A DNA stretch of 64,000 nucleotides from the human T2T-CHM13v2.0 reference genome, Homo sapiens. The notes beneath the pieces are model-generated. The model ran no database searches and had not been told where the DNA came from. It worked only from the letters and a program-made list of their open reading frames with translations. How positions within the stretch are numbered: position 1 is the first letter of the stretch; every line of letters starts with the position of its first letter. Location of the stretch: assembly GCF_009914755.1 (NCBI RefSeq), contig NC_060946.1, one strand, 5' to 3'. The translations under genes and the position numbers were made by a program. This document shows positions 14,577 to 34,190 of this stretch, piece after piece.

Positions 14577-14686
14577 CCCGTGCAGCATAATAAAAAATAG
14601 GATTCCCAGCTTTGGAAGCCCCAGCTTGGTAGAAAATACTTAACGTTTTCAAAGCCTTGATCTCTTCTTTTTCAGGTACCTGATGC
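14577..14686 (-). pseudogene. NF1P: NF1P exon equivalent to NF1 exon 36 (27b)
   Basis: [40 protein letters not shown] intact. Confidence 0.93.
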
Positions 14687-15171
14687 CTAAAAGAAAAAGA
14701 ACAGAGTACCTCTGAGGCTTTATGTTGTCTACTGAGTATGTAAAATAGTCTATAATTGGATAAACAATAAAATACTAAAATAAAAAATATTTTAAAAGCA
14801 ACAGGCATTCTAAAGGGTAATCTGACAACATGCACCAAAAATTTCAAGGTATTGCTCTTTGAGCCACAAAAGCACTTTTAGGACTATTCTAAGAGAACTA
14901 TTGGACGAGGATATTAACCATAGGATTGTTTTTACTCATGACATTTTTGTCCCAGACAGAAGTTTATGATTTTTGAATGAATTCATTTTATCAATCTTTT
15001 CCTTTCTAGCTTATGGATTTTGAATGGATGAAAAAGGCCTTGCTTTGCCATGCTGTTTTGATTTATGGGAGTTTATCCTCATAAATGGTATGAAGATATT
15101 TTTCCAGATCATTACTCAGTTTTATCAACACCATTTATTGAAAGTCCAACCTAATCTCCTGGATTTCAAAT

Positions 15172-15445
15172 ACTCAACATGTACAGATTTTTCTTTGTTT
15201 TTATTCCTTAAACAATATGGTATAACAACTATTTATATAACATTTATATTGTATTAGATATTATAAGTAATCTAAAAATATTTAAAATATATGGGAGGAT
15301 GTGCATAGTTTATATGCAAATACTATGACATTTTGTATCAGGGACTTGAGTCTGTGGATTTTAGTGTTCATGGGAGTGAGATGTGGGCAGGAGTTTGGGG
15401 GGTGGTTCCTGGAACCAATCCCTGACAGATACTGAGAGACGACCG
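15172..15445 (-). mobile_element. MER2 (TcMar-Tigger) DNA transposon fragment
   Basis: Ends ...GGTTCCTGGAACCAATCCCTGACAGATACTGAGAGACGACCG followed by TA, matching the MER2 terminus. Confidence 0.8.
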
Positions 15446-15962
15446 TATTATAAAGCTAGGCTTTGTCAAAGAAACATATGTAAATGCTTATTATACAGTC
15501 CATAGTGTTTAATCACTTTCTGATATGTGTCAATAAGTATTTATCATTAAAGTAGACTTAATTACTTCCTTTTTTGGTCTATCTCTGGTGTTTGAATCAG
15601 GAAATCAATTGTTTCTTAGACTCAACACAATGAGTTTCTCAAATAATACCTTTATCTATCTCATCATAACATAAATGCAATCTGAGGCTTTATGTATCTT
15701 ATTTCCCAATAACTGTAGACTATTCTTCATAAACTGACAACAATAACTTCCCAAACATACCGCTCTCGCACATTTATTTTTCCTGAAAGTCTATCGGTCA
15801 AGAAAAAGTAGTAATAAAGATTAGTGTCTTTACATATTTTGAACACAAAAGTTTTACATCTAAAAAGTTTAAATACACATAAAATACAAGTATAAAGCTG
15901 TAATGAAGTAGTTATAATTCTCACAGTAAAACCCACTAATATTTGAAAGTCATTTTTTTTAC

Positions 15963-16046
15963 CTTGTAAGACATTTTACATCATCATCTGCTGCTTGGTT
16001 TGATGTTCCCATAACCCAGTCTGTCAGGTATTCTACCATCTTATTC
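15963..16046 (-). pseudogene. NF1P: NF1P exon equivalent to NF1 exon 24 (19a)
   Basis: NKMVEYLTDWVMGTSNQAADDDVKCLT; 84 nt; AG/GT. Confidence 0.95.
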
Positions 16047-16514
16047 CTATAGAATGGTGGAGAAAAGAGAAACAGCACACAATTTTTCTGAAGTCATACC
16101 CCCCCACACACACACCTTCAGTGATGTAAGATTACTTATGGTGCAAATAATTTGGCAGATAACCCAGGTGACATGACGACTTTATAAAAGAGATACTGCT
16201 ATCATAGATGTAAAAGCCAGAAGGAACAAGCAACGTGGATACTGATCCTCCATCATGGCCTTTAGTTATGCTATCAGATTGGAAACAGAATCAAATTCTT
16301 AGCTCAAGTACAGCAGAGTTTTAGAAAAAGGGAGGCTTGCCACAGGCACAAAGCTTAGGGAAATTTGAGGAGAGACACAGAGAAAAACAAACATGTAAAC
16401 TGCTCTCTTTTTATGTCTTTCTTCCTACCAATAACCAGATATCTACTCTATTTCTGTACTTCATTCAACAAATTAAGATTTACAAGACCCTACATTGCTC
16501 TTTTGAGAACTCAC

Positions 16515-16637
16515 CTAAATTTCATCTCTCGGCAAAATGAGAGGTCATCTCTCCTTGCCATCGTTACTTCAACCAACTGACACAGTTTCGTTTTTATTTG
16601 AATTGCATGGACCATATTCCCAAGCACACAAACGTAC
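16515..16637 (-). pseudogene. NF1P: NF1P exon equivalent to NF1 exon 23 (18)
   Basis: YVCVLGNMVHAIQIKTKLCQLVEV..; 123 nt; AG/GT. Confidence 0.95.
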
Positions 16638-30987: not shown

Positions 30988-31352
30988 CTGCAGCCAAGCG
31001 GGAGAAACATGGGAGCTGGGCCCAGGCAAGGCAGCCACCAAACTCACTCTGCAACAAACCACAGTGGTGACCAATCCCCATCCTCCTTCCCATGCCAGCT
31101 GGGCGGGACCTCACCCGAAACAAGGGGTGGGAAAACTGGCAAGACCAGCACCCTGAGCACAGAGCCAAGAGCACACACAGCTGGCATCCTGCTTCTGGAA
31201 GGTGATGGGATGCCAGCGAGACTGCAGGGTGGACACTTCCTTCAGCTAGAAGTCTTACGAGCATACCAGCTGGGTCTGCACCAGCTGAAAACACCGGCTG
31301 TTCCATGGCTGCTCACTTTCCAAATACCAAGAAATGGAAAGAAAAGGGAAGT

Positions 31353-31998
31353 TTGGCCCGGCACAGTGGCTCATGCTTGTAATCCCAGCACTTTGGGAGG
31401 CCGAGGCAGGTGGATCAGTTGAGGTAAGAGTTAAAGACTAGCCTGGCCTGTCTCTACTAAAAATACAAAAGAAAAATTAGCTGGGCATAGTGGCACGTAC
31501 CTGTAGTCCCAGCTACTTGGGAGGCTAAGGCAGGAGAATCGTTTGAGCCTGGGAGGTGGAGGTTGCAGTGAGCTGAGATCACGCCACTGCACTGCAGCCT
31601 GGGCGACAGAACAAGACTCTGTGTCAAACAAAAAAAAAAAAAAAAAAGAAAAGAAAAGGGAAGTTCTAGGCTGGGCTTGATAGCTCATGTCTATAATCCC
31701 AGCACTTTGGGAGGCCGAGGTGGGCAGATCTCTTGAGGCCAGGAGTTCGAGACGAGCCTGGCCAACATGGTGAAACCCTGTCTCTACTAAAAATACAAAA
31801 ATTAGCCAGACATGGTGGCAGGTGCCTGTAATCCCAGCTCCCTGGGAGGCTGAGGCAGAATAATCCCTTGAACCCAGGAGGCAGGGGTTGCGATGAGCCG
31901 AGATCTCGCCACTGCACTCCAGCCTGGACAACAGAATGAGACTCTACATGAGAAAAAAAAAAAAGAAAGAAAAAAGAAAAAAGAAAAAAAGAAAGGAA
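31353..31998 (+). mobile_element. Two tandem Alus
   Basis: Two dimers with A/GA-rich tails. Confidence 0.9.
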
Positions 31999-32346
31999 AA
32001 GAGAATCTCATTTTCCTGCTGGGCTTGACCTGAGGTGTTTAGATGAAGTGAGGTCCTGGACAGGGGAGGGACGGTCCAAAGAGGCAAGAGCAGCAGCTTC
32101 CACTGGCTGGGCAGTCACTACATCCCACCACCAGGCTGGCTCTCAACACACACTACGTCTTTCCTCTGCATGAAAGACCAGGAAAAGGGAGCCCCCAGCA
32201 GGCCTGAGGACATGTGGAGACACACAGGGAAGTGTGGCAGTTGGGTTCCAACCTTGTCACACAAGGTGGTCAGCCTCCCCCAGCTGTAAGTGAACATAAC
32301 TTCTGTGGTGTGTTTCACACAAGACTCCATCTAAGAAAGAAGATGA

Positions 32347-32790
32347 CTGCTGGGCACGGTGGCTCACACCTGTAATCCCAGCACTTTGTTAGGCTGAGGA
32401 GGGCAGATCACCTGAGGTCAGGAGTTCGAGACCAGCCTGGCAAACATGGTGAAACCCAGTCTCTACTATACTTTTACTGATAAAGCAGACAATGAACATA
32501 ATGTATAGAAATCTTGAGCACAAATAGACATCAAAAGCACAAACAACAAAAGCAAAGATGTAATTACATTAAACTTGTCAAAAGTATAAGCAACAAAGGC
32601 AAATATGTAATTACATTAAACTTAAAACCTTCTGCAAAGCAGAGGAAGCAATCAGTAGAATGAAGAAACAACCCAGAGAATGGAACAAAATATTTGCAAA
32701 CTATGCATCAGCCAAGGGGTTAATACACAAAATATATAAAGAACTCAAACTACTCAAAAGCAAAAATACAAATAATCTGATTTAAAAAAA
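32347..32790 (+). mobile_element. Alu left arm (~32347-32469) fused to an L1 ORF2 3' fragment
   Basis: The Alu stops at CTCTACTA and is followed by L1-like sequence containing a ~45-bp tandem duplication. Confidence 0.75.
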
Positions 32791-34000
32791 TCTACCCAAA
32801 ACCTTTGTCTCTCACCATTATTTCTCCACCTTCTTTTCCCGACCGCCTTTGGTCTCCTCCCCCTCGCCACCCATTTTCTTCCTCCATCTACCCCAAAACT
32901 TTTTCCCCACCATTTTTCCCCCACCGTCATTTCGCAAAGCCTTCTCTACTCTCCCGCTCACCACCCTTTTCCCCATCTATCTGCCCAAACACTTTCCCCA
33001 CTGTTTTCTCCCACCGTCTTTTCCCCTTCTCCCTGGCCACCTTCTTTTTCCCCGTCCCACTCTCATCACCATCTTTTGCTCCTTCATCTAAGCAAAAGTA
33101 TTTTCCCCCCTCTTTTCCCAAAACCTTCTCCTCACTCCTGCCGCTCACCAACCTCTTTTCCCCCTTCATCTACCCAAAAACTGTTTTCCTCATCGTCTTT
33201 CCCCTGCTCCTCCTTGCCACCCTCTCCCTTCTCCATCTACCCAAAAACATTTCCCCACAGCCTTTTCGGAAAGCCTTCTCCCCACTCCTGCTCACCTCCT
33301 TCTTTTCCCCCTCCATCTATCCCTCAAAGTTCTCCCCACCGTCTTTTCAGTATTTCCCCCTTCCCACTCATCCTCTTTGCCCTATCCTGCTTTCCACTCT
33401 GTTTTGCCCTCCATCTACCCCAAACTATTTTTCCATTTTTTCCCCAACCCTCTTTCCCTGCTCCCTCTCGCCACCCTCTTTTCTCCTCCTCCTGGTCACC
33501 CTCTTTCCCCCGTGCATCTACCCAAACACATTTTACCCATCATCTTTTCTTCCCCGCCCCGTCTTTCTTTTCTGCCTGCTGTGTTTTTGCAAAACCCTGT
33601 CTTCCTCCCGCTGGCCACCCTTTTCCCTTCCCCCACTTGTTACCCTCTTTTCCCCCTCTATCTACCCAAAAACTTTTCTCCCCACTGTCTTTTCACAAAA
33701 CCTTCTCTCCCTACTGCTTGCCCCCATTTCCCTCCCACCCTCTTTCCTCCTCCCCCTTGCCACCCTCTTCTCCTCCATCTACCCATAAACTTTTTACCCA
33801 CTGTCTTTCTGCAAAACCTTCCCTCCCTCCCGCTCCCCACCCTGTTTCTCCCCCTCCATTTACCCAAAAACTTTTTTCCCACCATCTTTTCCCCACTGTC
33901 TTTTTGCAACACCTTCTCCTGCTCGCTATTCTCTTTTCCCTTTGTCACTAACCACCCTCTTTACCTCCCTCCATCTATCCCAAAACTATTTTCCTCCTCC
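32790..34000. repeat. Degenerate pyrimidine-rich minisatellite (anchor CCATCTACCCAAAAC, ~13 units of ~70-140 bp)
   Basis: Recurrent CATCTA(C/T)CC..AAAAC..TTTTCCCC..GCCACCCTC motifs; very G-poor + strand. Confidence 0.85.
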
Positions 34001-34190
34001 TACCTCTTGCACCACACTGCTTTCTCCGTTGCCGTCACCACAAACCGCAGCGAGGCGAGCCGTCCTACCGCGGCTCCAGCCTCCAGCGTACGGCCTGTGA
34101 TTACCCATTCCCGGTCCTCTAAGCTGGGCCCTGAGCAGCTCTACAGGAAGATACCGGAACCTTAAAGGGGCAGCCTTCCCTTCAGGATCA

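What the first reader, a model, noticed from the sequence alone, without database searches (positions are those of the whole stretch)
14577..34170. Possible chimeric transcription unit: BAGE-like promoter firing into co-oriented MED15P, NF1P, NOS2 and NEK2P pieces
Seen: all four gene-derived pieces lie on the minus strand, downstream of the left promoter arm. The MED15 3' UTR appears truncated at the NF1 junction, and 21 of 22 NF1P splice dinucleotides are intact. Known: BAGE genes arose when this type of exon 1 captured duplicated KMT2C exons. Inference: an analogous promoter-capture product (REP522 exon 1 > MED15P exons > NF1P exons) could exist as a cancer/testis lncRNA or decoy.
Basis: inference. 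Interest (0 to 1): 0.72.

Follow-up and report, generated by a model that had tools for sequence, protein, structure and literature searches.

The report
REP522 repeat beside MED15–NF1 pseudogene mosaic
This is a known kind of pericentromeric patchwork of dead gene copies lying next to a BAGE-type repeat promoter, and whether that promoter's mirror arm really drives a fused MED15P–NF1P RNA could not be tested here.

Summary
The anatomy is real. NEK2P2, a NOS2 exon fragment, an NF1 piece (window 26620 to ~7774) and a MED15 piece (32347-26618) all lie on the minus strand, left of a REP522 element (32830-36470). MED15's 3'UTR is cut at the NF1 junction (26618-26620), keeping 524 nt and losing the parent's AATAAA. 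21 of 22 NF1P splice dinucleotides are intact; only the exon 12a donor is lost.

None of this shows selection. About 18 of 22 intact NF1P sites is the neutral expectation (P about 0.09), and MED15P keeps only 10 of 15.

The REP522 palindromic CCAAT core is homologous to the arm that carries BAGE-type exon 1. The BAGE-sense direction here, however, is the plus strand, away from MED15P/NF1P. The left arm is only the mirror image; it has donor-like sites but no BAGE start codon.

RefSeq already joins MED15P (cryptic donor 27056) to NF1 exon 10b (24026), with a first exon at about 66.7 kb rather than in REP522.

The block is shared with 2q21 and 14q11. Print already describes REP522 as a cancer-activated promoter. 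No RNA data were available, so the hypothesis stays plausible and untested. Interest is modest.

The parts
32830..36470 (.). REP522 element: left G-rich array, palindromic core, right part
Evidence: The core has 126 matches genome-wide. Array and right part align to other copies.
32830..34030 (-). Degenerate tandem array, G-rich on the minus strand (45% G, 6% C), units of about 70-145 nt
   Evidence: TRF found no array. A seed motif recurs 10 times. The array is present in other REP522 copies.
34035..34711 (.). Palindromic core with five CCAAT boxes (34242, 34275, 34299, 34350, 34384) and TATA-like sites (34206, 34428)
   Evidence: Inverted repeats I3, I5, I6, I7 and I14; motif positions; CpG o/e 0.54 against 0.22 in the flanks.
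33963..34213 (-). Left arm read outward: TATA-like sites 34213-34191, then donor-like GCG|GT (34068-67), GAG|GT (34003-02) and GAG|GTAAAG (33964-63). This is the hypothetical mirror 'exon 1'.
   Evidence: It has no ATGGCNGCN start. The TSS is inferred, not observed.
35974..36078 (+). Homolog of BAGE-type exon 2. The acceptor AG is kept, an in-frame TAG is present, and the donor is changed from GT to GC.
26618..32347 (-). MED15-derived piece (parent C22:20978365-20980037 plus 20991433-20995872), with an 11.4 kb deletion at window 31036
   Evidence: 79-82% identity.
27157..30987 (-). MED15P exon homologs A-H: 30987-30861, 30669-30537, 30456-30393, ~29421-29357, 28929-28778, 28688-28522, 28074-27987, 27293-27157 (stop codon)
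   Evidence: 10 of 15 splice dinucleotides are intact.
27054..27056 (-). Cryptic donor (TTAG|GT) in the retained MED15 3'UTR, used in the RefSeq model
   Evidence: Hub table.
26618..26620 (-). MED15 3'UTR / NF1 intron 10a breakpoint, with a short T-rich microhomology
7774..26620 (-). NF1-derived piece. Relative to the parent it lacks C17:32160544-32169028 and 32177413-32210463. An L1 is inserted at 10547-13396.
14577..24026 (-). Eleven NF1P exons: 10b 24026-23892; 12a 23512-23388; 12b 21867-21713; 13 20555-20307; 14 19696-19624; 15 19390-19307; 16 17888-17449; 17 17071-16932; 18 16637-16515; 19a 16046-15963; 27b 14686-14577
   Evidence: Six exons carry 1-nt length changes, and several contain stop codons.
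6945..7776 (-). NOS2-type fragment (FAD-binding-domain exon within 7230-7605)
3536..5324 (-). NEK2 processed pseudogene (NEK2P2)
   Evidence: Hub table.

Best explanation
The region is a neutral pericentromeric duplicon mosaic. A REP522 repeat, the 3' half of MED15, an internally deleted NF1 fragment, a NOS2 exon fragment and a processed NEK2 copy were joined once. The block was then copied between 2q21, 14q11 (twice) and 22q11.

The MED15 piece lost its polyadenylation signal at the breakpoint. Any RNA polymerase running through MED15P therefore reads on into NF1-derived DNA. There a cryptic donor at 27056 can pair with the still-intact acceptor of NF1 exon 10b at 24026. This is the join that RefSeq models.

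Such transcription most likely enters from upstream: RefSeq's first exon lies at about 66.6-66.8 kb, antisense to an ATG|GTGAGT first-exon-like sequence. It gives a non-coding, unselected by-product. The REP522 core is a BAGE-type CCAAT promoter whose BAGE-sense output points the other way, on the plus strand. Its left arm contributes little or nothing in normal tissue.

Shown: the anatomy, homologies, breakpoints and state of the splice sites. Inferred: every statement about transcription.
For: Breakpoints and parent loci.

Copying of the block: the chr2 copy is collinear from NF1P through REP522 to 40.7 kb, and the two chr14 copies are 99% identical. This fits the printed 2q21 to 14q11 to 22q11 history (PMC4279825, passage read).

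Neutral decay: NF1P keeps 21 of 22 sites against about 18 expected. MED15P keeps 10 of 15 against about 10 expected at 82% identity. NF1P exons carry frameshifts and stop codons. REP522 is the least conserved segment between chr2 and chr22: 84%, against 94-96% for NF1P.

RefSeq model: its terminal exon 23930-24026 is the first 97 nt of NF1 exon 10b (hub table). The donor at 27056 and the acceptor at 24026 are canonical.

BAGE-sense orientation.
Against: No expression data were seen, so the origin of any transcript is unproven.

Five splice dinucleotides in four internal exons of the RefSeq model are non-canonical even after small shifts. Part of that model is therefore homology projection, and its RNA support is uncertain.

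The core and left array keep more CpG (o/e 0.54-0.63) than their surroundings (0.22-0.25). This would fit protection from germline methylation, as expected of an active germline or embryonic promoter.

REP522 is reported as strongly cancer-activated (PMC4896275) and up at the 8-cell stage (PMC6545021). A paralog, MED15P9, is up in head-and-neck tumours by log2FC 3.86, close to BAGE2 at 3.92 (PMC12519442 table). This hints at REP522-type regulation of at least one MED15P copy.
Confidence: 0.55

Rival explanations
1. The left arm of the REP522 palindrome is a genuine promoter, active in cancer, testis or early embryo. It makes a short exon 1 (about 34180 to 34069, 34004 or 33965) that splices into MED15P and then NF1P exons. 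The result would be a BAGE-like chimeric lncRNA from this locus and its five paralogs found here.
For: - The core is homologous to the BAGE exon-1 arm, and the arms are 87-96% complementary over their matching blocks.
- Three minus-strand CCAAT boxes, TATA-like sites and three donor-like sites lie in the right order.
- There are no poly(A) hexamers on the way to MED15P.
- The core retains CpG.
- REP522 lies upstream and co-oriented with MED15P in all 6 copies found here.
- REP522 carries cancer-activated CAGE promoters (PMC4896275).
- MED15P9 and BAGE2 are up-regulated to a similar degree in HNSCC (PMC12519442).
Against: - BAGE uses the other arm plus a second REP522 exon that has no counterpart on the left.
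- The left arm lacks the BAGE ATG.
- The path crosses 1.2 kb of G-rich array holding 3 canonical G4 motifs.
- The MED15P exon chain is broken at 5 of 15 sites.
- RefSeq places the TSS 32 kb upstream and lists no functional element here (hub table).
- The location of MED15P9 was not verified, and multi-mapping among 99%-identical copies is likely.
Confidence: 0.2
2. The block is silent heterochromatin. The RefSeq model would then be an annotation artefact: MED15 homology projection extended by prediction, or RNA that really comes from a chr14 or chr2 paralog. No stable RNA would be made from this copy.
For: - Five splice dinucleotides in four internal exons of the model are non-canonical (CT, AT, AC, GC, AA).
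- The gene type is pseudogene and the model is 'predicted' (hub table).
- The chr14 copies are 99% identical. Only 16 of 3686 positions differ in REP522, so reads cannot easily be assigned.
- The BAGE/REP522 locus is H3K9me3-covered and inactive in human liver (PMC3560060).
Against: Three features of the model are not explained by MED15 homology: a first exon at about 66.7 kb, an acceptor at 31109 beyond the MED15 exon and across the deletion junction at 31036, and a terminal exon inside NF1 exon 10b joined by canonical GT-AG. These point to some RNA evidence.
Confidence: 0.2

Closest known systems
BAGE gene family (REP522-derived 5' exons joined to KMT2C/MLL3-derived DNA on chr13/21 and related pericentromeres)
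   Same: It shares the same repeat. In 4 of 4 BAGE-type loci examined, exon 1 (ATGGCNGCN...|GTAAGA or GTAGGA) lies in the core arm and exon 2 lies 1.05-1.55 kb further out. The window's core and right part align to these loci at 66-78%. In five loci the REP522 flank abuts DNA 93% identical to C7:153.59 Mb.
   Different: Here the gene fragments lie on the opposite side of the repeat, so they would need the mirror arm. There is no exon-2 equivalent on that side and no BAGE ORF. In this copy the plus-strand exon-2 homolog has an in-frame TAG and has lost its donor. The BAGE peptide, and the 7q36 = KMT2C assignment, are recalled; no tool named them.
NF1 pseudogenes of 2q21, 14q11 and 22q11 (Luijten et al. 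2000, cited in PMC8745708 and summarised in PMC4279825)
   Same: It has the same exon content (10b, 12a-19a, 27b) with the same internal deletions, is 99% identical to two chr14 copies and 94-96% to a chr2 copy.
   Different: There is no material difference. This report adds that the NF1-derived DNA runs from 26620 to about 7774, far beyond the annotated NF1P6 span, and gives its exact fusion point with MED15's 3'UTR.
REP522 as a cancer-activated promoter (Kaczkowski et al. 2016; Horie et al. 2017)
   Same: It matches the printed description: a largely palindromic, unclassified interspersed repeat that carries CAGE start sites activated in cancer (PMC4896275 abstract; PMC6925957 passages).
   Different: Those two papers are not held here. 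Whether this copy, or its left arm, was among the active ones is unknown.

Membership tests
REP522 repeat | Largely palindromic, unclassified interspersed repeat, multi-copy near centromeres and telomeres (PMC4896275, PMC6545021) | tested here: met
   Palindromic core. The core gave 126 matches, on 14 of 24 contigs (chromosomes 2, 5, 7, 9, 10, 13, 14, 15, 17, 18, 20, 21, 22 and others). No RepeatMasker or Dfam check was possible.
REP522 repeat | Present at the BAGE locus (PMC3560060) | tested here: met
   The window element aligns to BAGE-type loci across array, core and right part.
BAGE gene family | Exon 1 in the REP522 arm, with start codon and GT donor, on the strand of the downstream captured exons | tested here: not met
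   The left arm has donor-like sites but no ATGGCNGCN. The BAGE-sense arm faces away from MED15P/NF1P.
BAGE gene family | Exon 2 encoding ...FLALSAQLLQA..., with acceptor and donor | tested here: not met
   The homolog at 35974-36078 (+) has an in-frame TAG and its donor is GC, not GT. The pattern search hit 22 other places but not this window.
BAGE gene family | Downstream exons derived from KMT2C (7q36) | tested here: not met
   The downstream DNA is derived from MED15 and NF1.
NF1 pseudogene group 2q21/14q11/22q11 | Unprocessed copy with exons 10b, 12a-19a and 27b, and high identity between the three chromosomes | tested here: met
Transcribed chimeric pseudogene / lncRNA | RNA molecules joining exons of different origin | not testable with these tools
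   The only evidence is the RefSeq predicted model in the hub table. No RNA data were available.

The most novel reading that the evidence does not exclude
REP522 would be a portable, bidirectional CCAAT-box promoter cassette. Its rightward arm made BAGE by capturing KMT2C exons. Its leftward arm, in six paralogous blocks on 2q21, 14q11 and 22q11, would drive a second, unrecognised family of cancer- or embryo-restricted chimeric RNAs: REP522 exon 1, then MED15P, then NF1P. These RNAs would carry about 1.7 kb of NF1-like exon sequence.
Probability: 0.18. Interest if true: 0.55.

Novelty: new member of a known kind. Interest (0 to 1): 0.3.

Why it matters
If the left arm fires, tumour and early-embryo RNA-seq signal assigned to 'MED15P' or 'NF1P' genes would really be REP522-driven chimeras. 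That would give a BAGE-like marker family. It would also put NF1-like RNA in cells, which could confuse NF1 cDNA diagnostics.

If it does not fire, the locus is one more neutral duplicon patchwork.

Either way, three things are practical for annotation and for read mapping: the exact breakpoints, the true extent of the NF1-derived DNA, and the near-identity to chr14. Only one diagnostic base lies in the putative exon 1.

Tried and rejected
1. A back-translated pattern for the published BAGE epitope gave 0 hits. This was later explained: the peptide is split by an intron between exon 1 and exon 2.
2. My first reading was that the BAGE promoter is not the palindromic core, because the ORF lies 1.3 kb away. 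I dropped it after finding exon 1 in the core arm.
3. A blind search for NF1 exon chains by size, AG/GT and open frame gave 1008 solutions. I replaced it with inspection of candidate exons and a PDB check of exon 16.
I used open stretches instead.
5. TRF did not report the G-rich array. It is too degenerate, and was shown instead by a recurring seed.
Only REP522 plus or minus 1.5 kb was compared.
8. Kaczkowski 2016 and Horie 2017 are not held.
9. The first version of the chr14 comparison used a wrong orientation and wrong coordinates. It was redone.
10. Name searches for MED15P7, NF1P6 and their paralogs found 10 papers. I opened only the two MED15P9 papers, which give expression values; the other eight I saw only as titles and abstracts. 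A REP522 search found 14 papers, and none of those I read mentions MED15P or NF1P.
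Full report
WHAT IS THERE

The window is chr22:16182001-16246000 of T2T-CHM13, and the whole assembly could be searched.

A REP522-type element lies between about 32830 and 36470. It has three parts:
- A left part (32830-34030) that is 45% G and 6% C on the minus strand. It is built of degenerate units of 70-145 nt. A 13-nt seed recurs 10 times, although TRF reports no array.
- A palindromic core (34035-34711). Its matching blocks are 87-96% complementary (I3, I5, I6, I7, I14). It holds five CCAAT boxes and two TATA-like sites placed symmetrically.
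- A right part (34716-36470).

The core alone has 126 matches in the genome, of which 40 of 72 candidates were scored. They include near-identical copies at C14:13232577 and C14:13793012.

GENE-DERIVED PIECES

BLAST against the parent loci gives exact borders.

MED15-derived DNA runs from window 32347 to 26618 on the minus strand. It corresponds to C22:20978365-20980037 plus C22:20991433-20995872, with 11.4 kb missing at window 31036 and 79-82% identity.

NF1-derived DNA starts at 26620, in NF1 intron 10a (C17:32157589), and can be followed to about 7774. It has two internal deletions (C17:32160544 to 32169028, and 32177413 to 32210463) and an L1 inserted at 10547-13396. The NF1 piece is therefore about twice as long as the annotated NF1P6 span (14578-24027). 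The MED15/NF1 breakpoint lies at 26618-26620, not at 24027.

The parent MED15 stop codon is followed by its first AATAAA 892 nt later. The copy keeps only 524 nt of that 3'UTR.

Further left lie two more minus-strand pieces. The first is a NOS-type FAD-domain exon at 7511-7230. It hits Pfam FAD_binding_1 at E 1.4e-6, below the curated cut-off. It also hits nNOS chains at E 0.003, and its DNA matches C17:28.60-28.71 Mb. The second is an intronless NEK2 copy.

SPLICE SITES

I placed the NF1 exons in the parent gene by size (recalled from the classical exon numbering), open frame and AG/GT flanks. I checked exon 16 against solved neurofibromin, where it matches residues 808-947 at E 5e-78. I then projected the exons onto the window.

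Eleven exons are present: 10b, 12a, 12b, 13, 14, 15, 16, 17, 18, 19a and 27b. 21 of 22 flanking dinucleotides are canonical. The exception is the exon 12a donor, GT to AT.

It is not evidence of constraint. At 90-92% identity, 17.8-18.6 intact sites are expected, and P(>=21) is 0.06-0.13. Six exons have 1-nt length changes and several contain stop codons, so there is no NF1-like reading frame.

I treated MED15P the same way. Eight parent exons join into an open frame of 318 codons plus a stop. In the copy, 10 of 15 sites are intact. The expectation at 82% identity is about 10.

RELATION TO BAGE

This part rests partly on recall: no tool named these loci. A back-translated stretch of the recalled BAGE peptide (FLALSAQLLQA) matches 22 places in the genome, against 0 for the reversed control.

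- 16 of the 22 lie within about 2 kb of a REP522 core listed.
- One more (C21:10712732) has the core by alignment.
- The other five were not checked.

In the loci examined this stretch begins directly after an acceptor (...ttgtag|GTTTTTCTGG), so it is a second exon. In 4 of 4 loci fetched, the sequence 1.05-1.55 kb upstream reads ATGGCNGCNGGNGCN followed by GTAAGA or GTAGGA. This lies in the core arm that adjoins the right part.

In five loci on chr13, chr15 and chr21, the DNA just beyond the REP522 flank is 93% identical to C7:153.59 Mb. This fits the recalled origin of BAGE from KMT2C/MLL3 at 7q36. PMC3560060 (passages read) places a large REP522 region at the chr21 BAGE locus and shows that the locus can become active.

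ORIENTATION

The BAGE-type loci are collinear with the window's element, and the BAGE strand corresponds to the window's plus strand. The exon-2 homolog lies at about 35974-36078 (+). In this copy it has an in-frame TAG, and GC stands where the donor GT should be.

MED15P and NF1P lie on the other side of the repeat. They could therefore be reached only from the mirror (left) arm.

On the minus strand the left arm does carry, in order, three CCAAT boxes (34303, 34279, 34246), TATA-like sites (34213-34191) and three donor-like sites (GCG|GT at 34068, GAG|GT at 34003, GAG|GTAAAG at 33964). It has no BAGE-type start codon and no second REP522 exon. There is no AATAAA or ATTAAA between 34180 and 31100 on that strand, so nothing obvious would stop read-through.

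RefSeq MODEL

LOC124905152 (hub table) ends with exon 23930-24026. This is the first 97 nt of NF1 exon 10b. It is joined to a canonical donor at 27056, about 100 nt into the retained MED15 3'UTR. A MED15P to NF1P chimera is therefore already modelled.

Its first exon ends at about 66790, 32 kb to the right of REP522. That sequence belongs to a 14-copy duplicon. It is antisense to a stretch ending ...ATCATG|GTGAGT that looks like the first exon of a plus-strand gene.

The model's next exon starts at 31109. That is 122 nt beyond the true MED15 exon acceptor (30987) and lies across the deletion junction at 31036.

These three features are not explained by MED15 homology and suggest RNA support. 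Against that, five splice dinucleotides in four internal exons are non-canonical in the DNA (CT, AT, AC, GC, AA). Part of the model must therefore be homology projection. I could not see the underlying evidence.

HISTORY

The chr2 copy (C2:131.625-131.650 Mb) is collinear with the window from NF1P through MED15P and REP522 to 40.7 kb. Identities are 94-96% for NF1P, 89% for MED15P, 84% for REP522 and 88% for the right flank. About 3 kb (29381-32520) does not align.

The two chr14 copies are 99% identical. This matches the printed history of 2q21 to 14q11 to 22q11 (PMC4279825 passage; Luijten 2000 seen only as a reference).

One search reported six MED15P copies, out of 40 of 10488 candidates scored. 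All six have a REP522 core upstream on the same strand: 2.6 kb from the query end in the chr22 and chr14 copies, and 5.7 kb in the chr2 copies. This reflects block copying and is not by itself a sign of selection.

EXPRESSION EVIDENCE IN PRINT

- REP522 is described as about 1.8 kb, largely palindromic and strongly enriched among the most cancer-activated CAGE promoters (PMC4896275, abstract read).
- It is up at the 8-cell stage (PMC6545021, passages).
- It is enriched in lncRNA exons (bioRxiv 10.1101/189753, passage).
- A paralog, MED15P9, has log2FC 3.86 in TCGA head-and-neck tumours, next to BAGE2 at 3.92 (PMC12519442, appendix table lines). It is also up in rhabdomyosarcoma (PMC13406521, passages).
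- I did not verify where MED15P9 lies. Multi-mapping among 99%-identical copies is a concern.
- The core and the left array keep more CpG (o/e 0.54 and 0.63) than the right part, MED15P, NF1P or the flank (0.22-0.25). This would fit reduced germline methylation.

VERDICT

The promoter homology and the MED15P to NF1P join are real. The analogy with BAGE is weaker than stated because the captured pieces lie on the mirror side. Splice-site retention is neutral, and the only annotated start site is elsewhere. Whether the left arm fires needs CAGE or long-read data.

Only 16 of 3686 positions distinguish this REP522 from C14:13.23 Mb, and only one of them (33970) lies in 33950-34320.

Noticed in passing
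window 41635-46970 versus L031 (window 64001-70000): An internal duplication of about 5 kb at 84-90% identity, in the same orientation. The distal copy carries an extra old L1 fragment (L031 708-2621).
   Followed up: partly
L031:2622-2800 (window about 66622-66800) and its paralog at window 44048-44376: The first exon of the RefSeq MED15P7 model is antisense to a plus-strand stretch ending ...TTCCATCATG|GTGAGTAC. That stretch looks like the first exon (ATG plus donor) of an unidentified duplicated gene. There are 14 copies in the genome, on chr2, 5, 8, 13, 14 and 22.
   Followed up: partly
window 7774-14577 and 24027-26620: NF1-derived intronic DNA extends well beyond the annotated NF1P6 span on both sides. 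It is interrupted by an L1 at 10547-13396.
   Followed up: yes
window 31036: The MED15 copy lacks 11.4 kb of the parent (C22:20980037 to 20991433). The RefSeq exon 30857-31109 runs across this junction.
   Followed up: yes
window 32830-34715 versus 34716-36470: CpG retention is asymmetric within REP522. CpG o/e is 0.63 in the left array and 0.54 in the core, but 0.22 in the right part.
   Followed up: no
C2:130569423-130572112 and C2:131969518-131972207: Two further MED15P copies on chr2 stop aligning exactly at the MED15/NF1 breakpoint (query position 4780). Either the NF1 part was lost there or it was not scored.
   Followed up: no
L055 (C21:10711000-10720000), gene-strand index 6143-6200: In this BAGE-type locus the exon-1 unit (about 20 nt, ATGGCGGC...GTAAG) is repeated three times in tandem. 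This shows that the outer arm is itself a short tandem array related to the G-rich array.
   Followed up: partly
window 29381-32520 versus L040:2366-6574: This stretch, between MED15P exon D and the REP522 array, does not align to the otherwise collinear chr2 copy at 400 bits or more.
   Followed up: no
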